From contig JAUCBJ010007575.1 of NCBI GenBank assembly GCA_032718475.1, forward strand, positions 1 through 59,846: 59,846 nucleotides of DNA, given 5' to 3'. Source of the DNA: Nemertoderma westbladi (taxonomy: Eukaryota; Animalia; Xenacoelomorpha). The notes beneath the pieces were generated by a model. That model searched no databases and was not told the origin of the DNA. It saw nothing but the letters and a program-made list of their open reading frames with translations. Made by a program: the position numbers and the translations under genes. Below, piece by piece: positions 2,476 through 48,301 of this stretch (positions are counted from its first letter, which is position 1; each line of letters begins with the position of its first letter).

Positions 2476-3297
<822 letters not shown>

Positions 3298-27781: not shown

Positions 27782-28730
27782 ATGGGCGAAGCTCAAGCCG
27801 GAGGCACCGGTTATCACGGTTTAGGAATTGGTAAATTTACTGCCACTGACCCTTTGAATTCGGGTAAAGAGTTCACGAAATGGTTACGATCGCTGGAACG
27901 AGCGATGAGGTTAGCGAGATTTGTGGATCCTGAAACTAAACTCGATGCATTATTCTACGAATCGGGTCGATCATTGAAAGATATAGCGGAGCACCTACCT
28001 AACCTGCCTGCAATAGAACCGCCACGAAACGCGTACCAAGAAGTGACGGACAAGCTTACTGAATACTTCACTCCGCGCAGAAACGTATCGCACGCTACAA
28101 TGCTGTTCATCGATTGTTCGCAGTTCGAAGATCAGAGCACAGTCGATTATGTGGTTAAACTTCGCGAGTTAGCTGTAGACTGTGAGTTTGGCGACTTACC
28201 AGCAGTTAATCGCCGCTTGAAAGAGCAAGTTCTGTCAAAAGGAACAAATATGCGGCTGAAAGCCAAGGCAATTGAACAGGACTGGACAATCGACGAGATT
28301 GTAAGACATGCAAAGATTATGGAAGACTCTAAACTTCAATTGGCCGACATGAGCGAAACTACACGACTACTGCAGAAAGTCAAACTCGAGGAAACCGATA
28401 AGGCCAAGGAAGCCAAAAAGATCCAGCACCGATATTCTCACCTGAATATGAAAACCCGATTCGGAAATACAAGACCTGGAATATCTCAACAAAGTTCCGG
28501 TTCACAACAGAATCCACACAATGAGAGGAGTCAAGTTGACAACAATTATCGATACTCACACCAAACCAATCAGGCACCACAAACCGAATGATGCCTTGGG
28601 TGTAATAAACAACACAGAGGGCGCTATTGTCCAGCCCATAACAGTAGCTGTTTTATATGCGGACACACGGGCCATTGGCGGACACGATGTCCGCAAATTA
28701 ACCCACAAAATGCGTCCCTTTCAAGCTAGA
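27782..28730 (+). pseudogene. gag: Gypsy gag with a premature stop before two zinc knuckles
   Basis: Gag-like YFTPRRN..Q..DQSTVDYVVKLRELAVDCEFG. TGA at 28589-28591 is followed in frame by CLGCNKQHRGRYC and CFICGHTGHWRTRC. Confidence 0.8.
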
Positions 28731-30743
28731 GGAGGCAGATCTAATTATCGCCAGCAGTTTCATATGAACAGACCCATGGGTGGGCCACACTACAGCAAAA
28801 GAATAGATGGAGAAGATCTGGAAGAACAGGTTTTTGATGAAACTGGTACCGGTACCGGTGATCATTACTGCTCCTGTGTTGATGATTCCTACAAAGAGGA
28901 CCCCCAGTTTCCAGACGAGGATCCAGATTATTTCGGTGAATGGTGCCACAAAGTTATTGGCGACCCCTTCGAGGATGTTAGCTTACAACTGAAAATTAAT
29001 GGAACTCTGATATGGGTTGAAATAGACTCATGCTGCTCTGTAACGATGATGGATGCATTCACGTTTAATAATCTCTGGCCCAACGCCCCACGATTGCATC
29101 CTCCCTTACGACCAGCATTTACTTATTGTAATCATAAAATTCCTATAGAAGGTTGGTTTATGGCGGAAATATCAACCAAAAATGCATCTATACAAGACCG
29201 TATAATGGTTGTATCTGGTAAAAGTTCTTCAAAACCGCTAATTTCGGGAAAAACTGCACTTAACTTGGGTATTCTGGCTGTTGCCAGGAAGAATCATTGT
29301 TTTAGTAACAGCCCTGACTCTTTTGGAAACTTTTACAATTTCAATGATATCGCCAATGAATTAGTGTTTAAGAAAATAGATGCAGAGAAATCAACTAACA
29401 ATGCTGATAAGAATATGTTACCAATGAACATTGTACATTGTAATGAAATATTCAGATCCACCATTGGCAAGTATCTTCATGGTCAAGTTGAATTAATGAT
29501 AGACACGACGGTCAAACCCATTACCCAAACTCCACGGAAGATCCCATTCTGTTACCAGGAACGCCTAGAGCAACATTTGGACAAACTGCTAAAAGAGGAC
29601 ATCATCGAACACGCCCCAACTAACATCCCAACGACATGGGTATCCAATATTGTATGTGCTCCCAAACCGAAGGATTCAGACCCAAATGCCCTGAGATTTT
29701 GTCTGGACTGTCGAGCGGCTAATACAGCTATATACCGTAACAAGAATGATCTGCCCACATTCGATGATATACTGTTTGCTGTTACAGGCAGCACAGTTTT
29801 CAGTCATCTAGACCTCAATAATGGATACCATCAACTAGAACTGTCTGCAGAAAATAGACCTATCACTACCTTTTATACACACCTCGGAAACATGAGATAT
29901 AAACGCCTCCCATTTGGTATAATATCTGCCCAGTATGAGTTCGATTGGGTGATAAGGCGAACTATCTCTGGAATTACAGGGGCGAGGAATATCTCCGACG
30001 ACATAATTGTCTTTGGGAAAACCGCCCACGATCACGATATAGCTCTGCAGCTAGTATTGGAAGCATTACTAAGCGCTGGGCTTACACTGAAACGGGAGAA
30101 ATGCGAATTCAGAGTCTCTAAAACCAAGTTCTTTGGGATTATCTTGAGCAAGGACGGCATATCACCTAATCCCAGTAAAGTACAAGCCATAAAGGATATG
30201 CGACCACCCACATGCAAAGAAGATGTGAGATCTCTCTTAGCCATGGTAGGAGCATCCCGTATGTTTATTCCAAATTTCGCCATCCTCACTGCTCCACTGA
30301 GAGAATTGACCAAAGATGACGTGCCCTTCATCTGGAACAATGATCTAATGGAATGTTTTGAAGCGATTCGCCATTGCTTATCAGAACATTGTCTTTTGGG
30401 CCATTTTGACCCACAATCTCAAACGGAGCTTCATGTGGACTTTCACAAAACTGGAATCGGTGCCATTTTGGTTCAACTCGACAACAAAACTGGAGAATGG
30501 ATTCCAAAAATGTATGCCAGTAGATCTACCACAGGCCCAGAATCTAGATATAGTCAAATTGAGGGAGAATGTTTAGCTGTAAGGTGGGGATCAGACCGGT
30601 TTCGACTATTTCTATTGGGTAACCCATATACCATTATAACCGATCACAAACCTCTCGAGATAATGTTATCCAAGAAACACCCTCTAAAGAGTCTTCCTCT
30701 AAGAATAGAGAGATGGATCATGTATCTCCAAGAGTTCGACTAC
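28730..30743 (+). pseudogene. pol: Gypsy pol (protease, reverse transcriptase, RNase H), truncated
   Basis: Protease IDSCCSVT; RT LDLNNGYHQ, RLPFGI, NISDDIIVFG; RNase H YSQIEGECLA, TDHKPL. The last ~40 codons of the listed ORF are read-through into host repeat. Confidence 0.9.
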
Positions 30744-31397
30744 GAATTAAGGTTGAAATATGATATGCAGCCGTATAACCGTATAATAAGACTTAAAATA
30801 AACCTAATATCAGTTAAAATAATGCATGCAACCGTATTGGAAGTTCCAGTGCTTATGGCTGCACGTTATATTTAAACTGTATTCCAGAAAAGAGTTGTAA
30901 TTTAGTGTGGGCTGGTTTATCTAAACAGATAATTCTCAGAAAAGTTCGAGTAATTCCGATTATTTGAAAGTTTTCATTACTTGATATTGGAATAAATAGA
31001 AATATTGATGTAATTCATATCCAATTTAATTTGTATCACTAATTAATTGCAGTTAATACATCAAAGTTACGGTAAACAATCATAAAATTAGCATATAATG
31101 GTTGCTATGAAGCTATGCAGAAGAATCCAGACGTGTTTAAGAGATTATTTACTAAGTTAGTGATAGTTAGTTATAGAAGTATAAGTACGTTCGTCCTATA
31201 GGCCGCAAATCTGCAATAAGGTACTTTACTGCGTTAACAGTAAAACACTAGAACGCTGAAAAGTTCGCATAATATTGTTGCAAATGTACCAATTGTTGAT
31301 ATCGCACGTAAACCTTTTAGAGTTTATTTACGGCAGCAGTAGAGACAGCCTTCTTAGATGGGAGTCCATGCTGGTCTCTCACTTCAGAGTATACAAA

Positions 31398-32051
31398 AGT
31401 AGTAGGGTCTTGGTCCTCTCTGCGACAGTTAGACCACACTGACACCCATTGGGTGTCATATGACACCCAATTATCACCCTATGGGTGTCATTGGGTGTCG
31501 TTGGCGCCAGACTGTCTGGGTGACACCTCCCAATTAGGCTAATTAGACCCTAATTGACAGGTGTCATCAATTAATTAGTACAATTAAACCCTAACAGGTG
31601 TCATATGACTCCTAATTAGGGTTTAATTGATTATCCTAATTAATCAGACTGATTAGCGCCCTGACACACAATGGGTCATCAGTGTTGTCTAACTGTCGCA
31701 GAGAGGAGCAAGAGGGTGTCATAAGTGACACCGCAGCTCTTTTATTTATTAATACTTATTTATTTGTACCTAATTTTAATTAATTATTTGTATTCTATTT
31801 TACTTTATTTATTCATTTGTACTTTATTTTAAATTAATTAATTATTTGTATTCTATTTTACTTTATTTATTCATTTGTACTTTATTTTAAATTAATTAAT
31901 TATTTGTATTCTATTTTACTTTATTTATTCATTGGTACTTTATTTTAAATTAATTAATTGTATTACTTTTACTTTATACATTGATTTCTATTTTTAGATT
32001 AATTAGTTTTATTTTACCAACGAGATCACTATGACATAATGTCTATATTTA
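31398..32051 (+). repeat. left TIR of the Polinton-like element
   Basis: Reverse complement of 47710-48301, with three rather than two copies of a 58-bp AT-rich subrepeat. Confidence 0.95.
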
Positions 32052-32539
32052 TCGTTATAATGGCTATGGTATACGGCTCCCTACTGGCAACTATCAACTA
32101 CGTTCATCGGCGGGGAGCCCTCCTCTGCCATCATTATTCATTAAGTTGCACAACATGCATTGGATCTACACGTATACCCCCAAGGCAAATATAAATGAGC
32201 GGTCCCGTCTGTTAGCAGCCCCCTCGATGACTCACTAATAATCCCAACGCAGCTTTGACTACAGCAAATCCGTATACCGCTCAAGGCTATTGCTCTAGCG
32301 GCCCTCCTTTGTTCTCACTATAGCCGGCATCACTCGGGTCCTTTCCTATATCCAGGCAGCCCGTATCATAACAATGAAGCGCCTCTAATTACGCATTCCT
32401 CTCTACTAATCCCTTTCCTTTGCACCAGACCTGCTTCTGTTATATAGTCAACTCAACATAATTAGTCAAGATGCCTACAGGAGTTTTCTAATAGATTCAT
32501 CAACACGAGAAGTTGCCCTGGTTACCGCTTATGCATGAA

Positions 32540-32660
32540 CAACCAATCAGCGGGCTTCATTTCTACTGCTGCGTTCTGATTGGCTCATTTAAGAGACAAG
32601 GGCCTCCCTTACTAACCGAATTGCTATTTAATACATCCCCGCCAATTTATTAGATCATTA
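32540..32660 (+). promoter_or_regulatory. putative Pol II promoter for the pPolB transcription unit
   Basis: CCAAT at 32543, inverted CCAAT at 32579, TATTTAA at 32625, and Inr-like TCATT at 32655, 30 bp downstream. Confidence 0.5.
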
Positions 32661-32785
32661 TTTCAATTGCAAGTTACGATTAACATCATTTACCATTATT
32701 TTGTTTTTGAATTTAATATTATTTATTAAGAATATTTATTTGTTATCATCAGTCAACAACCCACTTATATAGTTGTATTATTGTC

Positions 32786-33595
32786 ATTTCGCCGCGTTAT
32801 CGCTCATCGTCGACAACAAACTTTCCGTGTATCCGTCGCGTAATATTCTTCCGATACCATTCCGTTCTATCGCTGTATCGGTAAATAAATTCTCTCGTCG
32901 TCCACATCAACCAACTTCCTCATCGCCACCGAACTTCCAAACTTCTTCTTTCCGTGAATATTAACTGCCACCGTAAGTCAAATCTACCTTCCACCATCTG
33001 ACGATACTATCGATGCCGATAGCAAACAATTCACATTTAGGCCTAATGTCTACCGATACAACAGTATTGCAGTAGGCTCATTATTAATTACTGTCAGACT
33101 GTGGTGGTAGCGATAGCCTAAACCGTGATCGAGGCATTCGATCAATAGGCCTACAGCTGTTTATCTGCTTACAGTATTTTTATCTTTTTACAAATAATCA
33201 ACTTATTTTTCTAGTGTAATTTCGCCGCGTTAACGCTCATTGTCAACATCGAACTTTCCGCTTAGCCGTCGCGTAATATTCCAATATTTCTAATTTCCGA
33301 TACCATTCCGTTCTATCGGTTAATAAACTCTCTCGTCGTCCACGTCAACCAACTTCCTCACGAGCTTCCAAACTTCATCTTTCCGTGAATATTTACTAAC
33401 ACCGTAAGTAAAATCTGCCTTCCACCATCTGACTGTACTATCGATGCCAGTAGCAAACAATTTACATTTATTATCTACCGGTACAACAGTATTGCAGTAG
33501 ACTCATTATTAATTACTGTCAGAATGCGGTGGTACCGATAGCCTAAACCGTGAACGAAGCATTCGATCAATAGGTCTACATTACCTATCTGCTTG
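32786..33595 (+). repeat. ~433-bp tandem duplication carrying putative non-coding leader exons
   Basis: Two copies (32786, 33219), each with a GTAAGT donor (32973, 33404). The acceptor block ending TTTTTCTAG at 33214 recurs at 34115. Confidence 0.7.
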
Positions 33596-34122
33596 TCTAC
33601 CCAACTACCGCTACCGGATCATTCGAGTTAGCCTACTGCCACTATAGTAGCGATATAGACCCTACTGAACAACAATGAATACTGCAGTTTTCACTATATA
33701 ACATACTGACTAACTGAGTTCTCACACAGCGATTAGCTAGGCCTATTGTTGATTTGTATTGGTTAACGCTACCGCTACGTCTGACTTCTAGCAGACTTTT
33801 CACTAGCACTATTGCACTGACTGACTGTTGACTGCTGTTTATAGACCCTCTTTCCACGAATAATAACTGCCATCGCTATTATGTCTTGGTTATCGCCACT
33901 ATCTAACCGCTGGTACACTAACACTACCACACTAGACACTACCGACCGTCTGCTTTATGTTTCACTGACTGATTGTTACAATACAGCAATAGGCCTAACT
34001 GTACAAACACAGTATTGTTGCCTAGTAACCAATTAATAACTACTGTTTTACTTTATTTTTAGCAAGTATATAGTATTTTTTTATCTTTTTACAAATAATC
34101 AACGTATTTTTCTAGATTCAAG

Positions 34123-37100
34123 ATGCCTATGTCTAGCAATAAAGTTAGCTGCCCCATCTGCGACAAAGAGATGCGGAGCGATACTTTATCCCGCCATATT
34201 AAAATTCATTTCGCGCAATATCGATGCGACTGCTGTCCGACTTGGTCCTCGGAAAAGAAGACGCTGGTTGGCCATCTTGTTTCGTGTCCTCAGGGGGGAA
34301 CAGGATTTAGTTACGTAAACGAGCCAGCCGATTGCCGCTGCGGGGATTCGCTCACCCTATCTTCCTTCACTGAGCATGAATGCTACACTCGACTTTTTTC
34401 GCGGAAACGCAAAACTCCGACTACCTCCCACTCATCCCCCATCAACTCTACTCCAGAACAAGTCGGCGGTGGCGACTCCAATAACGAACCTTCAACTTCG
34501 CGAGATTCTATTTCCCCAAACAATCCATTTCAACCACCCTCTAACGGAAGCGCACACGGACGACTGTTTACCTATAACAACGACCTCGCAGAAACAAGAC
34601 TCGACGCTGAATTAACATTAAACGAAAATTTTCCACACATTCAAGAACACGTTAGTAGCCATCTACAAAGTGCTTTGGGAACTTTTTTAAGAGTCTGGCT
34701 TACAATCAATATCGTAATGGAGCGTGAAACCAGCGAGGGTTTTCAAATTGAATCATTCTGTTTTAAATCTAGCGGTAACAATAATCAAATTCTAAGTAAT
34801 AGCGACTTTAATAACTGGTTTTCTAGCGCCGTCAATCGTATCGATCAGCTGTTAAGCGTGTTTCTCTGCCTCGGCTCGGGTTGGCGCATAATAGCCATCG
34901 AGCGAATAACTATTGAGATTGCGCGGTCCCAACGCAACCCCTATTTAAAGGGTCAAGGCTTCAATAATTCTAAATTATTATTAAATAAAAAATGTACCGT
35001 AAGCGTAGACTGCCCGCTGGGGGAATGCTTTAAATACGCAGTATTGGCCGCCGCAAATTATAAGAAAATTGATAGAAAAAATAATAATATTAGTAGAATT
35101 TCAACGTATACTCCTTTCCTAAACATGTTTGATTTTTCCAATTTAAGTTTCCCGGTGGACAGAGTAACTGGTATTCCCCAGTTTCTGAAAGCAAACCCTA
35201 TATACTGTATAAACCTTCTTTATTGGAGTAATACGGAAGAACTCTCCATTCTAAGTCAGCCAGATAGCGCGCACTGTTCCGGTAAAACTGTACTAAACTT
35301 ATTATTTATCGAAGCCACAAGCAAAAACCCCGCCCACTACGTAGCTATTACTAACATAGATAGACTAATAAATTCAAAAGATTCTAACGGTAACAAGACG
35401 CACTGCGAACGATGTCTCAGAGGCTTTTACACTGACAAATCATTGGAAGAACATCGAGAGCGGTGCTATACGGGTAATCGCCAACTCGAGTATATGCCCG
35501 AAAATCTCTTGGTTAAATTTGACAGATACGATAAGACTCTATCCCCTCCTTTCTGTATATACGCCGACATTGAAACTATTCTAGAACCTACAAACAATAT
35601 TAAACTCCCACAGAAACATATAGCTAGCGCGGCAGCCTTTTATACAGTACCAAATCAGAAATTAATTAACCCTCCTAAAACAGATGTTCAAATTTTCCAT
35701 GATGATGGCAGTAACCACGTAATGCGCAACTTTCTAACCGCTATGGAAAGTCATTGTAGGGAGTTATACGATTGGTCCATTTCTAGCACAAACACGCACG
35801 CCCCCATGCAACTCACTACTAGCCAACAAACTGACTTTAATAACGCTACACAATGCTACGTCTGCAACTGTAATTTAACCCCCGATTCGCATAATTTAAA
35901 CCTCAATGACAATCTCAGCACCAAAGTCCGCGATCACGATCATTATAGCGGGGAGTATCGAGGGGCTGCTTGCGTCAGCTGCAACAGGAAACTTTCCCTA
36001 AAACGGAATAATTTTTATATTATATTTCATAACTTGAGGAAATTCGATATGCATTTACTGCTAAAAGAAGGAATGACCGATAGTTCTAGAACACACTGGA
36101 AAATGACTGTAATACCAAAAAACACTGAAACTTATATTCACCTTAAAGTTAGCTTTCCAATCGATCCGAGTACACCAACAGCCAACGCTAAAGAAAGTAT
36201 CTCCATTAATTTTCTAGATTCCTATCAATTTATGACTGCCAGCCTAGATAATCTTAGTAGTTATCTCACTAAAAATAATAGTAACCTAGCAACAGCCATA
36301 CCCCATACACTAGCTCAAATGACCCAACTCTATCCCAATATTAGCGATAACACAATAAAAAACAAGGGCGTATTCCCATATTCCTACATTCAAAATATTT
36401 CAAACCTACACGAAACTACACTCCCCCCAATAGAAAGCTTCTATAATGATCTCAAATTGGAACAATGTAGCGCAGACAACTATCAGCGCGCGCTTACTAC
36501 TTGGGATGAATTAAACTGCGCAACAATCTTCGACTATATGATTGGCTATTTGGTTCTAGACGTTACCCTATTGGCTGATACTTTCGAGCAGTTCCGATCC
36601 CTCTGTCTTACTAATTATGGACTCGAGCCCGTAATGTACTTCACTGCCCCGGGATTAACTTACGACGCGGCGCTGAAATTTACGCAATCAGAAATTCAAT
36701 TACTATCAGACGCTTCCATCTACTCGGACTTTGAAACAAATATTAGGGGTGGTCTAGTTTTCTTGAATACACATTCCGTAGACGCAAGTATTCCCGATAA
36801 ACCCGACTACGACTCCAGTCTCCCCGAGAAATATCTAATTCCCATCGATGCGAATAACCTTTACGGCTGCGCCCTGAGCCAGAAACTTCCCTACGCTAAT
36901 ATTAAACTCGTAACTACCCCCATAGACCTAGCTACAGTAGACGCGAGTGGGGACACTGGTTATTATTGCATAGTTGATCTACATTACCCGAAAGAAATTC
37001 ATGATTTGACCGCCGATCTGCCTCTAGGAGCGGAGAAGATGTCAGTCCCTAAATCCTTTCTTAGCGAATACATGGAAGATCTTTGGGAGCATTACAATCT

Positions 37101-38175
37101 CACCGATACGGCTACCTGTAGACCATACAACGATACCTGTACTAAGCTACTACTACATCAGTTTAATAAGGTTGAATACGGTATCCATATTAAGCTACTT
37201 CAGCTCTATTTGAAGCTCGGTCTTAAACTTACACAAGTACATAGGGTCTACTCTTTCTCACAAAAATATATTTTCAAGGACTACATTAGTTTTAATACGA
37301 ATAAAAGACAGTCGGCAAATAACCCATTCGAGGTTCTATTTTATAAGTTGATGAACAATGCCTTGTATGGGAAATGCCTCCAAAAGGTTAGAGACCGCGT
37401 TTCGTTCAGGTTATGCAATAGCGACGAACAATGCGATTTGCTCTTAGCCAAGCCCAATCATGAATCGTTTGTTGTCTTTACCCCCAACTTGAGTGGTCAT
37501 ACTTTCACTAAAGAGGCTGTTTGCCTAAATCAGGGCGTGTTCATCGGTTGCACTATACTAGATCTATCTAAGCTACAGATGTACGACCTATTTTACAACA
37601 AACTGAAGCCTCTAGAACAAAAACTGGATTGTCAGATTCGCTGTCTTGCCGGTGACACGGATTCTCTAATGCTAAGCGTAACTAATGCACCACAGCTAAC
37701 CTTTCTACGGGCAATGTTTGAGGGTGGTTTCCTAGATACTTCCAACTACAGCACAACACATCCACTCTATACCATTAAACACAAAGCGGCTCTCGGCTTC
37801 GTAAAAAATGAGAGCTGCGGTCTGCAGTATAAACAGTGGGTTTTCCTTAAACCAAAGGTCTATAGTTTTCAATCCTATGATGCCCCAATCAAGAAAACCG
37901 CCAAAGGTGTATCTAGATCTGTTGTCGCTAAGCAACTAACACACGAGGATTATGCAGACTGTTTTGAAAACGAGGCAATGCTCTTCCGCTATAACTCTAC
38001 CTTCACTTCTAGAAAGCATCAAATTTTTACTGGTCATGTCTATAAGAAGGCACTAACGCTCTGGGATACGAAATCATATTGGAGTAGTAAATATAGCAGC
38101 AAACCATACGGGCACTATAGCACTAAGCTTGTTAGACCGGCGAAACGAGTAGTAATCCCCCCTACTAGGATTTAA
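34123..38175 (+). CDS. pPolB: protein-primed family B DNA polymerase (Polinton type), 1350 aa
   Basis: Exo motifs YADIET, FHNLRKFD, YLVLDV; polymerase motifs RGG, DANNLYG, KLMNNALYGK, GDTDS, KPKVY, KGV. Endonuclease-VII-like insert CYVC..RDHDHYSGEYRGAACVSCN. N-terminal zinc fingers and GSGW region. ORF uninterrupted. Confidence 0.96.
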   Translation: MPMSSNKVSCPICDKEMRSDTLSRHIKIHFAQYRCDCCPTWSSEKKTLVGHLVSCPQGGTGFSYVNEPADCRCGDSLTLSSFTEHECYTRLFSRKRKTPTTSHSSPINSTPEQVGGGDSNNEPSTSRDSISPNNPFQPPSNGSAHGRLFTYNNDLAETRLDAELTLNENFPHIQEHVSSHLQSALGTFLRVWLTINIVMERETSEGFQIESFCFKSSGNNNQILSNSDFNNWFSSAVNRIDQLLSVFLCLGSGWRIIAIERITIEIARSQRNPYLKGQGFNNSKLLLNKKCTVSVDCPLGECFKYAVLAAANYKKIDRKNNNISRISTYTPFLNMFDFSNLSFPVDRVTGIPQFLKANPIYCINLLYWSNTEELSILSQPDSAHCSGKTVLNLLFIEATSKNPAHYVAITNIDRLINSKDSNGNKTHCERCLRGFYTDKSLEEHRERCYTGNRQLEYMPENLLVKFDRYDKTLSPPFCIYADIETILEPTNNIKLPQKHIASAAAFYTVPNQKLINPPKTDVQIFHDDGSNHVMRNFLTAMESHCRELYDWSISSTNTHAPMQLTTSQQTDFNNATQCYVCNCNLTPDSHNLNLNDNLSTKVRDHDHYSGEYRGAACVSCNRKLSLKRNNFYIIFHNLRKFDMHLLLKEGMTDSSRTHWKMTVIPKNTETYIHLKVSFPIDPSTPTANAKESISINFLDSYQFMTASLDNLSSYLTKNNSNLATAIPHTLAQMTQLYPNISDNTIKNKGVFPYSYIQNISNLHETTLPPIESFYNDLKLEQCSADNYQRALTTWDELNCATIFDYMIGYLVLDVTLLADTFEQFRSLCLTNYGLEPVMYFTAPGLTYDAALKFTQSEIQLLSDASIYSDFETNIRGGLVFLNTHSVDASIPDKPDYDSSLPEKYLIPIDANNLYGCALSQKLPYANIKLVTTPIDLATVDASGDTGYYCIVDLHYPKEIHDLTADLPLGAEKMSVPKSFLSEYMEDLWEHYNLTDTATCRPYNDTCTKLLLHQFNKVEYGIHIKLLQLYLKLGLKLTQVHRVYSFSQKYIFKDYISFNTNKRQSANNPFEVLFYKLMNNALYGKCLQKVRDRVSFRLCNSDEQCDLLLAKPNHESFVVFTPNLSGHTFTKEAVCLNQGVFIGCTILDLSKLQMYDLFYNKLKPLEQKLDCQIRCLAGDTDSLMLSVTNAPQLTFLRAMFEGGFLDTSNYSTTHPLYTIKHKAALGFVKNESCGLQYKQWVFLKPKVYSFQSYDAPIKKTAKGVSRSVVAKQLTHEDYADCFENEAMLFRYNSTFTSRKHQIFTGHVYKKALTLWDTKSYWSSKYSSKPYGHYSTKLVRPAKRVVIPPTRI

Positions 38176-38189
38176 ATTTATTTTTCTAG

Positions 38190-38705
38190 AATAAGAAATT
38201 GAACAACAAAATAGAAATAACCAATAAACAGTTTACCGGAAAAAACATTGCCAAATTTGAACTAGAGAAAATTTCACAGCAAATTACAGGTCAAAGTTGC
38301 TTAAAACCAAACATGTTTATCTACAAAGGTGACGATTCAACTTTAATGCTATTTCCCAGCGGCGCAGTAACAATTGTAGGCCTATGCAATAATTTAGCTA
38401 GTGAATTGCTTTATTTAAAACAAACTATTGGTATACAATTACAAAATTTGAAACTTAATACCGAAACACGAACTATTATTTTTCCAAGTGTTAATTTTAA
38501 ATTATTAATGAAAAAATGTGGACATCATACAATTAATAATAAAGCAATATTTATTAGCTATACCCCCGAATTATTTTGCGCGATTAGAATATATATAGGA
38601 CGTGCATATTTCAGTGTATTTCATAGTAATAAAATCGTTTCCATGTGTCCTGCCGGTGAATTCCCCGGATCATTATCTATTTTACAAACTTTATTATTAA
38701 ATTAG
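38190..38705 (+). CDS. divergent TATA-binding-protein-like protein (~170 aa); no ATG at the ORF start, probably spliced
   Basis: Two TBP-like repeats: IEITNKQFT..FELEKI..TLMLFPSGAVTIVG and LKLNTETRT..VNFKLL..SYTPELFCAIRI..FSVFHSNKIV. Preceded by TTTTTCTAG (AG at 38188-38189). Confidence 0.7.
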   Translation, partial: NKKLNNKIEITNKQFTGKNIAKFELEKISQQITGQSCLKPNMFIYKGDDSTLMLFPSGAVTIVGLCNNLASELLYLKQTIGIQLQNLKLNTETRTIIFPSVNFKLLMKKCGHHTINNKAIFISYTPELFCAIRIYIGRAYFSVFHSNKIVSMCPAGEFPGSLSILQTLLLN

Positions 38706-38759
38706 TTTATTTACTATGGTATACATGAAAGTTTACTATATTATTTATTTTGTGTTGGT

Positions 38760-39665
38760 TTTTATTTCTCCATGAGTGGGGTTTGAATCCGTGACCATCG
38801 CCGTGTTACCTACTTTTTATAATTGCATTAGTAGGACTCGAACCCTGGTTTAACTTATTTTGTGTTGGTGTTATAATGGTCGCGAGTAGGGCTTGAACCC
38901 GTGACCCGCTGTTTTCCCTATTTTGTGTTTACTTTTTATAATTCCCATAAAACGGGATATGAATAGGGATCGAACCCGTGACCATATGTTTTTCCTATTT
39001 TATGTTTAGTTTAGTCTAGTTATTCTATGTTTACTTTTTATATTTTCATGACTAGGATTCGAACCCTGGTTTAACTTATTTTGTGTTGGATTTATAATGG
39101 TCGCGAGTAGGGAATGAACCTATGACCTCCTGTTTATTTTCCATAAAACGGGATACGAATAGGGATTGAACCTGTGACCATATGTTTATCCTATTTTGTG
39201 TTTAGTTTAGGTACTCTAGTTATTCTATGTTTACTTTTTATATTTTCATGATTAGGATTCTAACCCTGGTTTAACTTATTTTGTGTTGGATTTATAATGG
39301 TCGCGAGTAGGGATTGAACCCATGACCATCTGTTTATCCTATTTTGTGTTTACTTTTTATATTTTTCCATAAAACAGGATACGAGAAGGGGTCGAACATG
39401 TGACCACCTGTTTATCCTATTTTATGTTTAGTTTAGTTACTCTAGTTATTCTATGTTTACTTTTTATATTTTTTATAAAACGGACACGAGTAGGGATTGA
39501 ACCCGTGACCATATGTTTTCCTAATTTATGTTTAGTTTAGTCTAGTTATTCTATGTTTACTTTTATATTTTCATCTCTAGGATTCGAACCCTGGTTTAAC
39601 TTATTTTGTGTTGGTTTTTTAATGGTCGCGAGTAGGGATTGAACCTATGACCTCCTGTTTATTTT
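38760..39665 (-). repeat. degenerate tandem array with about 13 tRNA B-box-like motifs
   Basis: Minus-strand GGTTCGAGTCC (38834), GGTTCAAGCCC (38889), GGTTCGATCCC (38966), GGTTCGAATCC (39055, ~39580) and GGTTCAATCCC variants, all in one orientation. Confidence 0.75.
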
Positions 39666-40335
39666 CCATTGGTTGTTTTATATTTAATATGTCACGCTCA
39701 TCTCTCTTTTTCTTTTCATCTTCACTAAAAATATCTTCGGATTTTTTAAATTTTTTGGTAACGGAGCCATTAGTTTTCCTTTCTATGTGTTTCCATATGA
39801 CGAGATAAATTGTCTTGTCTCATTTCTTTATTACAAACCAAACAACTTTTATGTCTATGCATTATAAAGCAATGTCAATTGATAATATTGAATTTTCACA
39901 TTATATTTATGTTAAATTATAAATTTATGCTACAATTATTATTTATATTATAAAAAACAGAAATATTCGAGTTATATTGCATTATATATTTTGCATTGAA
40001 GTGGAATACTTTAGATGTTGGGGGAATCTGGTTTGCGAGGGATATTTGAATGGTGAGTATAACTATCCTTGAGAGCTAGTGCAACGCTATCTCACTATGG
40101 ATGGGCTTTACCATTGTACTCGCATCTGCTCTCTCATTGGCTGCTCGATGCCTCCGATTAAGGGTCTAAGACCTTCAAGCTGACCTTTTGCTTAGTTTTC
40201 TAATTAGAAGGTCGTGAGTTTGCACCCTAGAAGAGCATTATTCTTTTTCCTAGCTCTCGGCTAACTCTAGTACACTCTAGCTTTGACTTTCCCGGCTATA
40301 GTGATAGTATGCAACCTTGGGAGTTAATGTGAGTA

Positions 40336-42634
40336 CATATTTCAGTGTATTTCATAGTAATAAAATCGTTTCCATGTGTCCTACCGGTGAATTCCCCGGA
40401 TCATTATCTATTTTACAAACCGTTAGGAGCCCGCTTGACAGCGGGATACTTACTGTAAGAATCTTCAGGATACATTACATTGACTGACACTGACTGACTG
40501 ATAATTATCTAGGTTAAGGCACTTCCTGCCTGGCGATTTTGATGAAATTTTGCAAGTACATTGCTTTTGAGGTTCATAATCGCGTTACAAAATTTCAGAT
40601 CGATTCTATGTGTGGTATTCGATATATTTAGTTTTTTGACATTGTTTTGTCGCGAAATTAAAAGCAATGGTAAAATAACAGCTGGTGTTCATGATGAAAT
40701 ATGGCTTAATATGTTATACACAGTCATAGTAAAACGTATTGGTTGCCAAGTTTTACTAGTAGGCTATAAGGAAAGTCAATGTTTACTCACACATAAGCTG
40801 TTGGTTTCTAATGTATTACCCCATAAGCTGATTGCTCTCCCAGTGCTTCCTAAGGGTATATCTACAATAAGGTTACTCACTCTGCTATGTTAGGGGGTGG
40901 ATCAGGAGAATGAATTTTAGTTACACAAAGCAGTGTGTTGTGTCCTATTGCAGTCGATACTCACTGTGGATTGCAAAATGTTTTATAGTTGACCTACACT
41001 ATAATACAGTAGTTGCATGTATTTAAGGAGCCCGCTCTGGCCTACTGCCTAACTTAGCAGTAATACCTATATTACATATACACATATTAATAATATTCTT
41101 ATTTTTTTTATTACATACGATTTTTTAGCTGAAACGATTTTTTAGCTGAAGCATTAATAGTGTAAATTAATTTAATTATATTTTAATACCATTACTACAT
41201 TGGCATACTGTAAGATAAGTTTTAATATTTCTTACAAATAGTGGTGCGAGCATAAATCAAATCACGCAAATTTAAAAGAACCGGGTGTGTTGTCATAGCA
41301 AAGTTTCAGTTTTTATTATGTGGGACGAGCCACAAAGTACTGCTGAGAAAGACTGAAAGGTTCAAAGACTGTATGTCAACAATGTTATTATTATTATAGT
41401 CTGCGCCACAAACAGAATATGCCAAATAATTAAATTAGCAATATAAATTTCAGAAAAATAGCTATCGGACTTGGCTGAAGAAATCGAATTATAATCCACT
41501 TAGTTTGTTATATTGATGATATTATTACTCTCTGGGAATGTGTTGGAATGGGAGATTGTAAATTATTATTGAACAGCAAATATTACATATCCCATAAAAG
41601 TCGTCATAATTAATTGTGTAGAAACAATTGTTCACCTTCTCGTTTAGATTAATTAGTAAATAAATAAATTAGTTTAGATATTTTCTGTTAGCGAATTTAT
41701 TTCGAATAATAAAAAAGTGTGTAGGCCGATTGTATGGTTGTTTAATTTGCGTTATTATTTTTCGCCGCGACCTAGACTTCTATTAATTGTTAAATCTAAT
41801 GGTTTTCAAAAAGAAAGGTAACCGTACCTGTACTGGTAAATCTAACTTGTTATTTATCTGGTTGTGAATCATGGGCATTTTCTTATAAATATTCGGTTGT
41901 TAGTGGCAGCAAAGTTTCATTTTTTATTATGTGGGGCAAGCCACAAAGTCAGCTATGTATCATCACACCATTTAGACAATTGTTTAGTTTAGTATTGGCT
42001 AGGATTCTTCCCCCCGGGCTCCTTCCAGCCAGCTTGCTGGCTCTCTAGTTTACTATGGTATGCATGAAAGTTTACTATATTATTAATTTTGTGTTGGTTT
42101 TTATTTTTCCGTGAGTAGGGTTTGAATCCGTGACCATCTGTTTATCCTATTTTGTGTTTAGTTTAGTTACTCTATGTTAAAGTGAATTTTCACATTATAT
42201 TTATGTTAAATTATAAATTTATGCTACAATTATTATTTATATTATAAAAACAGAAATATTCGAGTTATATTGCATTATATATTTTACATTGAAGAGGAAT
42301 ACTTTAGATGTGGGGGGGAACCTGGTTTGCGAGGGATATTTGAATGGTGAGTATAACTATCCTTGAGAGCTAGTGCAACGCTATCTCACTATGGATGGGC
42401 TTTACCATTGTACTCGCATCTGCTCTCTCATTGGCTGCTCGATGCCTCCGATTAAGGGTCTAAGGCCTTCAAGCTGACCATTTGCTTAGTTTTCTAATTA
42501 GAAGGTCGTGAGTTTGGACCCTAGAAGAGCATTATTCTTTTTCCTAGCTCTCGGCTAACTCTAGTACACTCTAGCTTTGACTCTCCCGCCGGCTATAGTT
42601 ATAGTATGCAACCTTGGGAGTTAATGTGAGTAAA
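40336..42634 (+). repeat. second copy of an internal duplication of 38605-40335
   Basis: 40336-40420 repeats the 3' end of the TBP-like ORF (38605-38689); 42049-42140 repeats 38705-38800; 42183-42634 repeats 39889-40335. Confidence 0.85.
40423..42048 (+). mobile_element. non-autonomous Helentron-type (DINE/HINE-like) element nested in the Polinton
   Basis: 5' subTIR AGGAGCCCG with an adjacent hairpin, (ACTG)n tract, 3' inverted subTIR CGGGCTCCT, stem-loop AGCCAGCTTGCTGGCT, ends CTAG before TT. Confidence 0.7.
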
Positions 42635-45600
42635 GACCAAGAGATTAGACTTCAGGCTCCCTCTATTGGTTCATTCTTCTTAACTTTATAAAATAACTCA
42701 ACCCATATTTAAAGTTTTAAAAATTATGACTTAGTCGACTAATTTTCCAAAGTATATTATAAAAACATATAATTTCTTGAATTAATAGACCTAATAGTAA
42801 TAAATAATGTGGGGGGTAAATACATTTATAATTCTAATATAATTATTAAGGATAAATAGTCCTAATACTAATATAATTATGTAATAGTAAGCAAAATTTT
42901 TATGCGCAACCATCAGAGATTATTTGGATATAAAAGATCACATAGCAGGAGGCTAACTTGCTGGGATCGACAAAGGCTTTGTGTGCGGTGTGCCGCTGTC
43001 TTATATCGGGTGGATGAGAGAGCCCCCTCGGGCGTAACATTGTGAACATGGGCTATATTGCTAGAGAGAGAACTACATATAAGACCATGGCCGGCCCTCA
43101 TGCAAATTTAGCGGCGCCAAGGCTAATGGGGCACCTCGAAGACAGTATGGCTATAGTAGAGTAGAATCGACATACGAGTCCATAGCTAAAATACATCTGC
43201 CATGGAGCCTTCGCGTAGCACTATGCTCACCAAATATATTTATAATTCTCTATCCGCGAAATTTTCAGGAATTTTAAATTTTTGCCGTCGCTTCGCGGAA
43301 AAAATAAAAAGTAAACACAAAATAGGATATACAGATTGTCATAGATTTGATTCCCTACCCCCCGACCAGGGTCATTATGACCCTCCCCGGTGTTTGTACA
43401 ACATTTTATAGCCCGGTAGTATTGGGGTTATTATGTGACTCATGAAAATAAATCTTAAATACAATACAACTGTTCCATCTTGGTGAAGTGGATGCAATGT
43501 ATTTACAAATCGAGTGTGGATCAGGATAGTTTTCGTTAAGGTTTCACCTTGGTGAAGTGGAAGCATTGTATTCACATTTCGAGTACCATTTTTATTGAAA
43601 CTATGGGGCATTTTATATTAGCCGATTTTTCAAAATTTGTAAAGTTTTGAGGGTTTTTATTGAAAATATAGGGATTTAGGGATTAACATTCAAATTGACT
43701 ACGAAGAAGCCATAGGGATCATTAATGGTATGTTGAGACTCAGAAATTTTCAGGAATTTTAAATTTTGGTCGTCGCTTCGCGGAAAATATAAAAAGTAAA
43801 CACAAAATAGGATATACAGATTGTCATAGATTCGATTCCCTATCTCGACCAGGGTCATTATGACCCTCCCCCGATATTTATACAACATTTTATAGCCCGG
43901 TAGTATTATGATTAAAGCTACTAAACTAAAACATAACAAAGTGCAATTATCCTATCTGTTCCAACTCAGTGTCACTAGTTTAGATAATATACTATAATAA
44001 TAGTGATAGCAGATGCTTTTAATTTCGCGATGAAATAATGTTAGCAAACGAAATATAGCGAATACATCATAAATAGAGTTTTAAATTAGTATGGTTTTAT
44101 CTGTAATTTTTTATTTTGAACGCAATAGTAAAAAGATTATTATGTGACTCATGAAAATAAATCTTAAATAAAATACAAATGTTCCACCTTGGTGAAGTGG
44201 ATGCAATGTATTTACATCTCAAGTGTGGATCAGGTTTGTAGCCAGGATTTTTAGGTTGGGTAGACCTGGGAATATCAGAGTAGGCAGGCGGAAATGTTAA
44301 TTTGGATAAATTTTACAATAGACTTAACTGATTAAATGTTTACAGCGGATAGAAAGCAAACCTACAGTAGGATGTACATGGAGTCCACCATTAGTTCATC
44401 ATTTGTATACAAAGCATAATTTAAACAATGGACGAAATCGCGTAGATCCGCGTCTACTAGTCTACTGACGCATTAACTGTCTCCTTGAATGGCTTACTAT
44501 CAATCATACTACTAAAAATTCATTGGAGAGTGGGATTGAACTCGTTGTATAGTAAAAAAGTAAAACGAGTGAAATACTATATGTATAATTACAGGATGGC
44601 TGGGTGCAACCTTCGTTCACCTACAACCTCCCCCCAGGTGCAATCTTTGTTCGCGAAAATTTTCAGGAATTTTAAATTTTGCAGTCGCATGGAGTGATAA
44701 CCCTTAGGTGAAAGCTAAATTTGCTCTACTTTAATCAAATGGGGCATTAAAGCTATGAGTATATTTTCCTTTACATCCTCCCCCCGATCTTACACAAATC
44801 TGGGTAAAAGGCAGTTGAAGGGCTATCATTCCCAACATATGCGGTCCTCCCTTTAATGTTTCATTGTTCTATTCATAGTCGCCTTTGAGAATTTCTCGGG
44901 AAAATAAGGATGAGGGGCTATCACTTTCAACCCATGCGGCCCTCCCTTTCACGATTTCATTGAACTATCCATAGTATGAACAATCAAACCAAAGCCTTTG
45001 AATATAGGACTGAATATCCTCGCGTCTTATCAGCAGCGCCATGGCTAACGGCTTAATATTAACAGTGAAGCATCTAAAAGACAGAGTATCTATGATAGGG
45101 CAGAACAGCATACTTACAGCTTAGAGGTGGGCGCGCTGAAAACTTTGCTCGCCATCAATACACACAAAGCATCGCCTGATGGAATGAGTAATAGCGTGGA
45201 TATTTTCATTTTGGTGAATAAAATTTATAGCATTAATCACGAAAATCGCTAAATAATATATTTTAACTAAAATCAACTCTGATAAACAACTTGCATATCG
45301 AGTTTGTAAAGGGATTGGCTGTTTATTTAGGGGTTAACATTCAAAATGATTATGAACGAGCAATAGGGTCATTAATGGTATGCTGAGACTCACTTATTTC
45401 ATGGCTCGCTCTCATAGTATAGATTAACTAATAGAGAAAAATGAAAAATAATCGGTTAAATATCTTATATTTTTTAAACAATATGGGGAAACAAGAATAA
45501 ATAATTTACCGACAACATCAATATTAAATAATATAACAACAACGGATAAATAATTTACCAACAACATTAATAATAAATAATATAAGAACATCAACAATAA

Positions 45601-45647
45601 CAAAAGATATAATCAGAACAGTTTTTAATAAATAGAGACTGTTTACA

Positions 45648-47360
45648 TTAATAGGGTTGCTGGCCTCCGAGAGTAACGTTTGGTTTAACCCTTTTAGGGC
45701 CCGATACTATTAATGGTTGCGATAATTTTCTCTTTAATAGATTGTTGAGATAGCCTTTTCTTGGGGGGTGAAATAGATTAAGGTGTGTTTGCTGCGGGAG
45801 AAAGATGCCTTCTCTGAGAGAACGTTTTAGTAATTCGAAAAGGCGCGCGATGGTAAAGTCGTTGGATAGGGTGATAGTGTTGGTATTTTTCGTATTGGTG
45901 AATATAATTTCTGTTGGTTTGTTCTCGATATGAATGTAAGGACTGAGATAGTAGTGAGAGTTGGGTGGGTTGGTTATATTTATCGTGAGAAAATCGCTGC
46001 CCCTAATATTGAGACCGTTGGTGAACTGAAAAGTGGTATTCTCTTCGTCTTTCATTAAAATGGGCCAGATACCGACATATTTTTCGGATTTGAACTTATA
46101 GATAAAGGCTGCGATACTGCTATTTATGAGATAGCGCTGGTGATTGGGGATCGTAATCTGCTTTGGTTTGAAAGTAAATTGTATAGCCATTTCCTTGAAG
46201 CTGATTAGAGCCTCGCGCGCTTGAATCGTGTTAGCTATAGTAAAGGATTCGTTAAATTTTCTCTCGGTTATCTGTAAATCAATTTCTGAATCACTGATAC
46301 AACTTTGTATCGATATTCGCTCGGAAATGTTGTCTTTGTAGACGTTAAGTTCATCGCAGCAGACACATTCACTATCCTCGATGGTTGAATCGAACCATTT
46401 CAATTCGCCGACCTCGGTTGGTGTAAGAAGAATCATGCCCCTAGAAGAAACAATAGCCTTTCCATCGTCAACCTCGTAGCCATTGGTGATCGCTAAATTG
46501 CGCTCATTCCGAATATTTGTAACAAACCCAAAAGTGCAATAGTCAAAAGCAACCCAATTGCCCGGTTTTAGGACAAGGTGAGTAGTAGGATTAATAAAAG
46601 GGCGACAGATGTTTACATATTGTTGAAATAAATTGGCGCAGGCGACGGAAAATGTGATCCATGAACTGTTTACAGTGTCTTCCAGCTTTATTAACTCGAG
46701 TGGTTTCATTGGGTTAATACTTCCATAGGTGCCAACTCTATAATTGAATCCAAAGTAATAGGAGACTTTATTGGCGAAAAAGCAAGTGAGCTCATTCAAT
46801 TTCTCGCCGAAAGCGAGAACATCCTTGTCGAAAAGTTTAAAGAAACGAGTCTCCTCTTCCTCGGTCGGAGTCGACGAGTTCCAGATGAGAAGAAGAATCG
46901 AGTTTGCGATACTATGAAAATCAAATAAGCGATCATCGGAGAAGAAGGAGGTTACAAGAGTGGTTAAACCCAGTAGACGATTTGCCACATCTTGGTTGAT
47001 GTTTTCTCGAATAAAATCGACTATACTAGTTGGAATCGTAAACGTCTCGGGCGAAGTAGTTAGATTGAACGTTATTTTGTTGTCCCTTTTTAAAAGTTTG
47101 AAACCGTGGTTGGAGGAATGAAGTTTATTATCGTCGAGGGTTTGATATTGTCCATCGTGAAGTTCGTAGCAGGCACGGAAAATAAAGTGCGCGTAGTTTG
47201 CCGGAATCGGGATGGGTTGGTTTAAGGTTGTATTTATCGTTAACGGGAAGAGTTTGTTCGCCGAATCGAAATATAGACCAAACGAGTTGTCTTGTAGCAT
47301 AAACTGATTTTCGTTGCAAACCAGATCGTTGCTTGAATAGCTGATTTCTGAATGTGCCAT
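45648..47360 (-). CDS. 570-aa hypothetical protein of the Polinton-like element; possible PC4-like segments and C-terminal NLS
   Basis: Long intact ATG-initiated ORF in AT-rich DNA with upstream promoter motifs; basic tail KRKLSQPLIVSGPKRVK. The ORF is well supported; the function is tentative. Confidence 0.8.
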   Translation of the reverse strand: MAHSEISYSSNDLVCNENQFMLQDNSFGLYFDSANKLFPLTINTTLNQPIPIPANYAHFIFRACYELHDGQYQTLDDNKLHSSNHGFKLLKRDNKITFNLTTSPETFTIPTSIVDFIRENINQDVANRLLGLTTLVTSFFSDDRLFDFHSIANSILLLIWNSSTPTEEEETRFFKLFDKDVLAFGEKLNELTCFFANKVSYYFGFNYRVGTYGSINPMKPLELIKLEDTVNSSWITFSVACANLFQQYVNICRPFINPTTHLVLKPGNWVAFDYCTFGFVTNIRNERNLAITNGYEVDDGKAIVSSRGMILLTPTEVGELKWFDSTIEDSECVCCDELNVYKDNISERISIQSCISDSEIDLQITERKFNESFTIANTIQAREALISFKEMAIQFTFKPKQITIPNHQRYLINSSIAAFIYKFKSEKYVGIWPILMKDEENTTFQFTNGLNIRGSDFLTINITNPPNSHYYLSPYIHIENKPTEIIFTNTKNTNTITLSNDFTIARLFELLKRSLREGIFLPQQTHLNLFHPPRKGYLNNLLKRKLSQPLIVSGPKRVKPNVTLGGQQPY

Positions 47361-47474
47361 CGTGATTGTGTACCGGTAACTCGTTTAGGAAATAAAAATA
47401 AATAAATACTTTTACGAAAATAATTAAAACTTTTCAGGAAAACAAAGAGACAATGATTGGGAATGTGGTGAACG

Positions 47475-47580
47475 GGGGCTATTATAGAGGGGGCTAGAAT
47501 GGGTTAGCCAATCAGGGAACAGGAGGGAGAAAAGATTGTATAATTAAACCAATCAGAGAGCAGCTTTGATGACGTCACAT
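47475..47580 (-). promoter_or_regulatory. putative Pol II promoter of the 570-aa ORF
   Basis: CRE palindrome TGACGTCA at 47570-47577, CCAATCAG at 47549 and 47508, TATAAT on the minus strand at 47486-47481. Confidence 0.55.
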
Positions 47581-47709
47581 CAGGCGAGATAATGATTGCC
47601 CAATGTTATTCAATGGTAGACAGAGTGGCGCCATTGAATAACGAAGACAAAGGGGCCGCGAGAGGAAAGATTATAAAGTTAACGATAAGGGATCTATAAA
47701 CCATAGAGC

Positions 47710-48301
47710 TAAATATAGGCATTATGTCATAGTGATCTCGTTGGTAATATAAAAACTAATTAATCTAAAAATAGAAATCAATGTATTAAGTAAAAGTAAT
47801 ACAATTAATTAATTTAAAATAAAGTACAAATGAATAAATAAAGTAAAATAGAATACAAATAATTAATTAAAATAAAGTACAAATGAATAAATAAAGTAAA
47901 ATAGAATACAAATAATTAATTAAAATTAGGTACAAATAAATAAGTATTAATAAATAAAAGAGCTGCGGTGTCACTTATGACACCCTCTTGCTCCTCTCTG
48001 CGACAGTTAGACAACACTGATGACCCATTATGTGTCAGGGCGCTAATCAGTCTGATTAATTAGGATAATCAATTAAACCCTAATTAGGAGTCATATGACA
48101 CCTGTTAGGGTTTAATTGTACTAATTAATTGATGACACCTGTCAATTAGGGTCTAATTAGACTAATTGGGAGGTGTCACCCAGACAGTCTGGCGCCAATG
48201 ACACCCAATGACACCCATAGGGTGATAATCGGGTGTCATATGACACCCAATGGGTGTCAGTGTGGTCTAACTGTCGCAGAGAGGACCAAGACCCTACTAA
48301 T
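47710..48301 (-). repeat. right TIR of the Polinton-like element
   Basis: Reverse complement of 31398-32051 with few substitutions. Confidence 0.95.

What the first reader, a model, noticed from the sequence alone, without database searches (positions are those of the whole stretch)
38190..38705. Divergent TATA-binding protein homolog directly behind the polymerase
The ORF matches the length and two-repeat layout of the TBP core. TLMLFPSGAVTIVG aligns with TBP TALIFSSGKMVCTG; SYTPELFCAIRI..FSVFHSNKIV aligns with SYEPELFPGLIYR..LLIFVSGKVV; both repeat-initial Asn residues (ITN, KLN) are present. Three of the four DNA-intercalating Phe positions appear retained. TBP is not part of the standard Polinton gene set as I know it. 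Inference: it may redirect host Pol II/III to element promoters or act as a decoy.
Basis: partly seen in the sequence, partly recalled or inferred. Interest (0 to 1): 0.85.

Follow-up and report, generated by a model that had tools for sequence, protein, structure and literature searches.

The report
Start-less viral TBP behind Maverick polymerase
A virus-like jumping element (Maverick/Polinton) in an animal genome carries, right behind its DNA polymerase, an unbroken reading frame for a strongly diverged TATA-binding-protein homolog that lacks a full-length start codon, is likely expressed by splicing, and likely serves as the element's own promoter-recognition factor.

Summary
Confirmed: 38190-38705 encodes a divergent TBP homolog. 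Pfam alone is weak (E 5e-4, below cut-off). However, a profile of the ORF plus its one database relative returns only TBPs from the PDB (33 of 33). A model built from family-only sequences reaches pLDDT 81 and matches solved TBPs (TM about 0.6). The ORF belongs to a small subfamily with a 5-residue N-lobe deletion that removes one of the four DNA-wedging phenylalanines; two near-identical relatives sit beside a packaging-type ATPase and an integrase. It starts directly at an 11-nt acceptor-like word that also precedes the polymerase, so splicing or a non-AUG start is needed (untested; no RNA data). The 16.9-kb element has terminal inverted repeats and a 6-bp target duplication but no detectable integrase or capsid genes. 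Contigs from 3 samples show no stop or indel in the ORF. A TBP label in adintovirus-like elements is already in print (figure legend, Starrett 2021), and this scan reported Maverick TBPs in other genomes five times. Verdict: real, new variant of a known kind; function inferred.

The parts
38190..38705 (+). TBP-fold ORF, 171 codons stop to stop; first in-frame AUG at 38313, near-cognate UUG at 38199
38179..38189 (+). 11-nt acceptor-like word (pyrimidine tract + TAG) directly before the TBP frame; its TAG is the in-frame upstream stop
   Evidence: 3 copies in the window, all in the element on the + strand; 0.13 expected
34123..38175 (+). protein-primed family B DNA polymerase, 1350 aa, with N-terminal zinc finger and EndoVII-like motif; exonuclease and polymerase motifs present
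   Evidence: Pfam DNA_pol_B_2 E 3.7e-18; relatives about 35% identical; motifs
34105..34115 (+). same acceptor-like word, 7 nt before the pPolB AUG
33204..33409 (+). acceptor-like word, 189-nt AUG-free exon-like block and GTAAGT donor-like site (33404); second copy of a ~400-nt duplication
32543..32978 (+). left-arm promoter-like site (CCAAT/ATTGG x2, TATTTAA at 32625, Inr-like TCATT 32 nt later), AUG-free stretch, donor-like site at 32973
   Evidence: function inferred
45648..47360 (-). 570-aa ORF of unknown family, the only other long ORF of the element
   Evidence: no usable hit in Pfam, NCBIfam, PHROGs, PDB or Atlas
47452..47577 (-). right-arm promoter-like site (CRE-like TGACGT, ATTGG x2, TATAAT at 47486, TCATT 32 nt later)
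31398..32051 (+). left terminal inverted repeat, starting AGTAGT, after the 6-bp target duplication at 31392-31397
47710..48301 (-). right terminal inverted repeat (98% identical over the first 300 nt; one mismatch in the terminal dinucleotide), before the 6-bp target duplication at 48302-48307
38710..45400 (.). rearranged interior of tandem and dispersed repeats; longest stop-free frame 115 codons; includes an 88-nt copy of the TBP 3' end at 40333-40420

Best explanation
The ORF is a Maverick-encoded TBP homolog that likely works as the element's own promoter-recognition factor, predicted to bind AT-rich element promoters through its saddle, and is likely expressed as a downstream exon of the polymerase-side transcript. 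SHOWN: TBP homology; membership of a subfamily with a 5-residue N-lobe deletion and a Y[TE]PE[LI]FCA C-lobe loop; position inside a repeat-bounded element; a shared acceptor-like word before pPolB and TBP; no listed stop or indel in other copies. PREDICTED: the two-repeat saddle fold. INFERRED: a host-type TATA/Inr/CCAAT promoter at about 32.6 kb makes one early transcript. Alternative 3' splice-site choice then yields a pPolB or a TBP message. The TBP start would come from an upstream exon (phase-0 donor-like sites in pPolB lie at 34144, 34651 and 34999), from a trans-spliced leader, or from the UUG at 38199. INFERRED: with one wedge Phe gone, an asymmetric saddle would read a non-canonical TATA-like word. 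The family would recruit host Pol II through the retained acidic C-lobe loop and host TFIIB, while the reduced basic helix-2 patch would weaken control by TFIIA, TAF1 and BTAF1/Mot1. Its natural targets would be the capsid and packaging promoters of complete elements, which this copy lacks.
For: PDB hits 33 of 33 TBP with a 2-sequence profile and 35 of 35 with the 7-sequence profile. Profile-profile probability 96.7% against 11 TBPs. Family-only model pLDDT 81, pTM 0.69; the top listed Foldseek ranks (1-43) are all TBP chains, E 2e-7 at best, TM 0.51-0.63; viral TBPs are among the top BFVD hits. 14 invariant columns over 7 sequences from 4 lineages, including F55, F129, F144. L040 and L041 place a family member (Pfam TBP 1e-16) before an A32-type ATPase, a zinc-finger ORF and an rve integrase. 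Acceptor word 3 observed against 0.13 expected. 0 AUG in the two leader-like blocks against 5.3 expected. No promoter words at 37900-38200. 12 variant sites in the ORF: 6 synonymous, 6 missense, 0 stops, 0 indels; P 0.02-0.08 against neutrality. Viral TBPs keep DNA-contact positions and lose N-lobe regulator signatures (PMC7221094); a herpesviral TBP mimic drives late genes (10.1101/2025.08.25.672222, abstract).
Against: No transcript, DNA-binding or partner data. No AUG-bearing upstream exon was demonstrated; the strong donor-like sites at 32973 and 33404 carry no in-frame AUG. The window protein is the most eroded member: first TFIIB-contact Glu is Thr, and two C-lobe glycines invariant in 11 TBPs and in all six relatives are replaced (N147, C153); its tree branch is very long (5.38). 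The selection signal is weak and depends on the transition weighting. The folded alignment rows are themselves TBP-like, and the single sequence did not fold (pLDDT 32). Most viral TBPs come with a viral TFIIB; none was detected here. This copy has no late genes to regulate. The two TBP-bearing relative contigs do not reach a polymerase gene, so TBP-pPolB adjacency is not shown outside this element.
Confidence: 0.5

Rival explanations
1. Decaying passenger: a once functional Maverick TBP gene lost its start and key residues in the master copy of a non-autonomous family. It stays open only because the family spread recently.
For: No AUG before codon 42 and no variant supplying one in 4 runs, whereas all database relatives have their own Met. 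Two invariant glycines and one TFIIB Glu are lost. The window copy differs from the main form at only 4 listed sites in 516 nt, so the family is young. Integrase and capsid genes are absent.
Against: The frame opens exactly at an acceptor-like word shared with pPolB and covers the whole saddle. Synonymous excess, P 0.02-0.08. At about 25% identity to relatives it still keeps 14 invariant positions, which implies long selection at least until recently.
Confidence: 0.22
2. Replication helper: the saddle binds and bends the AT-rich terminal repeats to assist protein-primed initiation, as host transcription factors do at adenovirus origins (recalled), rather than acting in transcription.
For: It is kept together with pPolB in a copy that lacks all late genes. 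It shares an acceptor-like word and probably a transcript with pPolB. The terminal repeats hold AT-rich tandem units.
Against: In L040 and L041 the family gene lies with packaging and integrase genes. Relatives keep both acidic TFIIB-contact residues. Deletion forms lose most of pPolB yet keep the TBP side. Co-retention can be simple linkage.
Confidence: 0.13
3. Decoy or repressor: it occupies TATA-like DNA or sequesters host TFIIB or NC2 without forming a productive complex, damping host or early element transcription.
For: One wedge Phe, the basic helix-2 patch (2 K/R against 5 in the two eukaryote-type TBPs L037 and L032) and one TFIIB Glu are lost. No viral TFIIB partner was detected.
Against: A protein decoy would be expected to keep the outer partner-binding surfaces; here the DNA-facing positions are the conserved ones. 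The known herpesviral mimic activates (abstract).
Confidence: 0.12
4. Not a TBP: chance resemblance of an AT-rich open frame.
For: Pfam below cut-off, second half alone no hit; direct phmmer against PDB found no TBP; single-sequence hhalign only 49%.
Against: The only hit among 1.84 billion representatives is a Pfam-positive TBP; family profile and fold search give TBP.
Confidence: 0.02

Closest known systems
[quoted passage not shown] 2021, PMC8502044; passages and section 3.4 read, figure itself not visible; one supplement searched, no TBP hit)
   Same: A TBP-like gene in a midsize pPolB element.
   Different: There it is only a legend label: no host stated in the text I read, no residue analysis, no function. 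Here it is an animal element, with a defined subfamily signature, no own full-length AUG and a shared acceptor-like word.
Viral TBPs of large dsDNA viruses (Nucleocytoviricota; PMC7221094, passages and sections 7, 8, 11, 12 read)
   Same: Two-lobe core only; DNA-contact Phe kept; N-lobe regulator signatures lost.
   Different: Those viruses mostly encode their own TFIIB; none was detected here. The relatives keep both acidic TFIIB-contact residues. The N-lobe loop is shortened by 5 residues.
Beta/gammaherpesvirus TBP mimics (KSHV ORF24; 10.1101/2025.08.25.672222, abstract and outline only)
   Same: Viral TBP fold proposed to give late-promoter specificity with host Pol II.
   Different: ORF24 has an extra DNA-binding C-terminal domain and viral cofactors and binds Pol II itself. 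This is a bare 171-aa core with no known cofactors.
Cellular TBP / TRF2 (TBPL1)
   Same: Fold (TM about 0.6), three of four Phe, repeat-initial Asn, YxPExF loop.
   Different: 15-20% identity, N-lobe loop deletion, shorter and less basic helix 2, two C-lobe glycines replaced.
Polinton/Maverick (adintovirus) elements of animals
   Same: pPolB with N-terminal zinc finger and EndoVII-like motif, long terminal inverted repeats starting AGT, 6-bp target duplication (family hallmarks recalled).
   Different: No integrase, packaging ATPase, protease or capsid detected in this copy; only three long ORFs.

Membership tests
TBP family (PF00352) | Profile match over Pfam's curated cut-off | tested here: not met
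   20.3 bits against 22.9; five relatives scanned pass at 45-68 bits
TBP family (PF00352) | Homology to TBP by profile methods | tested here: met
TBP family (PF00352) | Two-repeat saddle fold | tested here: met
   predicted model pLDDT 81 from family-only alignment; Foldseek TBP E 2e-7, TM about 0.6; a prediction, not a solved structure
Canonical TBP | Four intercalating Phe | tested here: not met
   three kept (F55, F129, F144); the first lies in a family-wide deletion
Canonical TBP | Two acidic TFIIB-contact residues in the C-lobe loop | tested here: not met
   T125 and E127 here; both Glu in all six relatives; feature from PMC7221094
Canonical eukaryotic TBP | Basic N-lobe/helix-2 patch for TFIIA, TAF1, Mot1, Brf1 | tested here: not met
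   2 K/R in a 23-residue window against 5 in L037 and L032; crude count (feature)
TBP family | Binds and bends TATA DNA | not testable with these tools
   needs EMSA/SELEX
Polinton/Maverick | pPolB | tested here: met
Polinton/Maverick | Long terminal inverted repeats and 6-bp target duplication | tested here: met
Polinton/Maverick (autonomous) | Retroviral-type integrase, packaging ATPase, protease, capsid genes | tested here: not met
   no long ORF besides three; tblastn of 628 ORFs from 22 pPolB loci finds no credible remnant; this copy is a non-autonomous or deleted derivative
Orthogonal viral TBP-TFIIB pair | Element-encoded TFIIB | tested here: inconclusive
   no TFIIB hit for the 570-aa ORF; complete copies were not seen
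Spliced or trans-spliced gene | RNA junction into 38190 | not testable with these tools
   no RNA holder listed

The most novel reading that the evidence does not exclude
Animal Mavericks carry their own minimal TBP subfamily that has deleted one DNA-wedging loop yet keeps the host-TFIIB handle, giving a one-protein switch that reprograms host Pol II to element promoters. In this lineage the gene has no full-length start codon and is turned on only by splicing to a shared acceptor (cis, adenovirus-style, or by a leader-supplied start), so splice choice would set the early-to-late switch.
Probability: 0.25. Interest if true: 0.8.

Novelty: new variant of a known kind. Interest (0 to 1): 0.5.

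Why it matters
How Mavericks/Polintons time their capsid genes is unknown, and whether they lead a virus life in animals is a standing question. A dedicated TBP-fold factor is the kind of late-gene switch used by herpesviruses and giant viruses. Finding one in 15-20 kb elements gives a direct handle: define its DNA word, then look for that word and its activity in host tissues. The subfamily is also a natural experiment on TBP itself (three wedges, no basic patch). The value of this particular locus is tempered by the published label, by five earlier reports from this scan, and by the chance that this copy is a decaying passenger.

Tried and rejected
No whole genome is held, so copies could not be counted or read whole. 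Word-based homolog search with the ORF: 55 candidates, none scored. phmmer against PDB: no TBP. NCBIfam and PHROGs: nothing. Single-sequence AlphaFold: pLDDT 32, unusable. Viral-contig scans for the TBP family found none: 35, 49, 93, 215 pattern matches, 0 confirmed; 0 matches; pPolB single-sequence scan none. Exact cluster look-up: 0 of 7 window proteins. Expression: no RNA holder listed; run X5 (RNA is a guess, other organism) laid 8 low-depth contigs and says nothing on splicing. Contig depth is not a copy number. Tree of 16 proteins (P0159, P0160 dropped as near-duplicates): the family groups at 86/85, unstarred, with long branches meeting, so no origin can be assigned. Read-through or frameshift fusion to pPolB rejected: stops lie in the TBP frame between the genes. 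My first promoter pattern missed the right-arm site; the corrected pattern was fitted after seeing both sites and also hits 2 other places. VIA-align second look never ran. The 570-aa ORF stayed unassigned. No complex prediction was run. Host phylum was not determined. Papers: no characterisation of a Maverick TBP was found in searches; subscription papers, figures and bioRxiv supplements are not visible.

Full report
OBSERVATION. The frame is real: 171 codons from stop to stop at 38190-38705 (+), 14 nt behind the stop of a 1350-aa protein-primed DNA polymerase. The frame begins directly after a TAG that ends a pyrimidine-rich, acceptor-like word.

IS IT A TBP? Alone the signal is weak: Pfam TBP E 5e-4, below cut-off, first repeat only; no TBP by phmmer against the PDB; single-sequence fold pLDDT 32. 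Independent lines then converge. All 30 ESM Atlas hits carry the TBP family set (0.95-0.96; recognition below the tool's mark). The single hit among 1.84 billion representatives (P0122, E 9e-4) is a Pfam-positive TBP. The two-sequence profile finds a second relative (P0158), returns TBP for 33 of 33 PDB hits and matches 11 ordinary TBPs at 96.7%. A metagenome scan confirmed 2 of 77 pattern matches, L040 and L041. With a 7-row family-only alignment AlphaFold gives pLDDT 81 and pTM 0.69 (4 of 5 models near 80). Foldseek then lists TBP chains at all shown ranks from 1 to 43 (TM 0.51-0.63, rmsd 4-6) and viral TBPs among the top BFVD hits. Caveat: the alignment rows are TBP-like and were found with the query. 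Shuffle controls: 0 of 2000 reach the query's score under either profile.

RESIDUES. Fourteen columns are invariant across the 7 family rows, which represent 4 lineages. All share a 5-residue deletion in the N-lobe loop that carries TBP's first wedge Phe, and a C-lobe loop Y[TE]PE[LI]FCA. N12 and N90 occupy symmetric places in the first strand of each repeat. All six relatives keep both acidic residues that contact TFIIB (feature from PMC7221094 section 11); the window protein keeps one. The helix-2 region has 2 basic residues against 5 in two eukaryote-type TBPs (crude count); that patch binds TFIIA, TAF1, Mot1 and Brf1 (section 12). Against function: two C-lobe glycines, invariant in 11 TBPs and all relatives, are replaced here, and the branch is very long.

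THE ELEMENT. The gene lies in a 16.9-kb element (31398-48301) with terminal inverted repeats of about 600 nt, 98% identical over the first 300, and a perfect 6-bp target duplication. These are Polinton/Maverick hallmarks (recalled). It has only three long ORFs: pPolB, TBP-like and an unassigned 570-aa ORF. The interior is rearranged repeats, and tblastn with 628 ORFs from 22 pPolB loci finds no credible integrase, ATPase, protease or capsid remnant. This copy is therefore non-autonomous or deleted; whether complete copies exist I could not test. A MELK gene marks the host as an animal.

OTHER COPIES. Contigs of 4 runs (3 samples; one may be the window's source) cover the ORF throughout, at summed depth near 2000 in run X1 against 4-150 for minor forms, which suggests a repeated family but is not a copy number. 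Twelve variant sites are listed in the ORF: 6 synonymous, 6 missense, no stop, no indel, none adding an upstream AUG. With 20-28% synonymous expectation, P is 0.02-0.08: weak support for constraint. Contigs drop rare variants, and the table does not list every difference of the minor forms.

EXPRESSION. The 11-nt acceptor-like word occurs 3 times in the window against 0.13 expected: before an AUG-free 189-nt block (33215), 7 nt before the pPolB AUG, and directly before the TBP frame. Donor-like GTAAGT sites close two duplicated blocks (32973, 33404). A host-type promoter geometry lies at 32543-32659 and is mirrored at the right arm. The simplest inference is one early transcript with alternative 3' splice sites. 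The TBP start is unresolved: a pPolB 5' exon (phase-0 donor-like sites at 34144, 34651, 34999), a leader-supplied start (spliced leaders can supply NUG starts; PMC9851317 abstract), or UUG at 38199. No RNA holder was listed, so none was tested.

CONTEXT ELSEWHERE. In L040 and L041 (a near-identical pair, so one lineage) a family member with its own Met precedes an A32-type ATPase, a zinc-finger ORF and an rve integrase. TBP is not general among pPolB elements: 0 of 138 ORFs chosen from 21 of 22 distant IMG/VR loci, and 0 of 5 whole records (17 not held), hit it. Those loci are partial and about 35% identical in pPolB.

MECHANISM. Best reading (0.5): an element-specific promoter factor, like viral TBPs of larger DNA viruses, that reads a non-canonical TATA-like word at structural-gene promoters, uses host TFIIB and Pol II, and escapes N-lobe regulators. 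Only homology, residue pattern and gene anatomy are shown; the fold is predicted; binding, partners and targets are inferred. The late-promoter idea was also prompted by earlier scan notes e1-8146902 and e1-9035083, which I did not test. Rivals: decaying passenger (0.22), replication helper at the terminal repeats (0.13), decoy (0.12), not a TBP (0.02).

WHAT IS KNOWN. Starrett et al. [quoted passage not shown] I could not see the figure, and the one supplement held had no TBP hit. Paper searches found no study of a Maverick TBP; subscription papers are not covered. This scan has reported Maverick TBPs in other genomes five times and acceptor words before Polinton genes three times; these are unchecked AI notes.

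VERDICT. Real TBP homolog of a Maverick-associated subfamily; a new variant of a known kind. The start-less, acceptor-abutting layout is the distinctive feature of this locus. Interest 0.5.

Noticed in passing
window 45648-47360 (-): Intact 570-aa ORF, the only other long gene of the element, behind a TATA/Inr/CCAAT/CRE-like promoter; no family found in five libraries.
   Followed up: partly
window 32625 (+) and 47486 (-): Two convergent promoter-like sites just inside the terminal repeats share the same geometry: TATA-like word, TCATT with its A 32 nt later, two CCAAT/ATTGG boxes upstream. 2 of 4 exact-spacing matches in the window, and the only ones with the boxes (pattern fitted after the fact).
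   Followed up: partly
window 32779-33170 and 33212-33594: Tandem duplication (82% identical) of an AUG-free exon-like cassette ending in a GTAAGT donor-like site; contigs show copy-number joints across it.
   Followed up: partly
window 34956-38183 and 38006-38184: Deletion forms in other contigs remove most or the end of pPolB and rejoin at the acceptor-like word before the TBP frame (first joint in 2 of 4 runs, second in 1 of 4).
   Followed up: partly
window pPolB residues 1175-1181: Polymerase motif C reads AGDTDS; 28 of 36 aligned rows have F/Y-T before DTDS, 2 of 36 (this one included) have AG.
   Followed up: partly
window 40333-40420: 88-nt, 98% identical copy of the TBP 3' end inside the rearranged interior; minor contigs also carry a diverged 3' part with different flanks.
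   Followed up: partly
window 577-3246 (-): Host MELK kinase gene with apparently a single coding intron; indicates an animal host.
   Followed up: partly
window 27782-30875 (+): LTR-retrotransposon gag-pol (PNMA-like, RT, RNase H), apparently truncated, ending about 500 nt before the element's left end.
   Followed up: no
window from 10198 (about 140 units): 31-nt satellite array that creates long spurious ORFs.
   Followed up: no
L040 212-3313, L041 240-2743: Metagenome contigs with a family TBP gene followed by ATPase, small ORF, C2H2 ORF and integrase: Maverick-type gene set, polymerase not on the contig.
   Followed up: yes
L005 2362-3237 (-); L019 333-1118 (-); L017 1080-1793 (-): pPolB elements in IMG/VR carrying a Tet/JBP-like oxygenase (E 2.6e-7) or DNA methyltransferase-like genes.
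   Followed up: no
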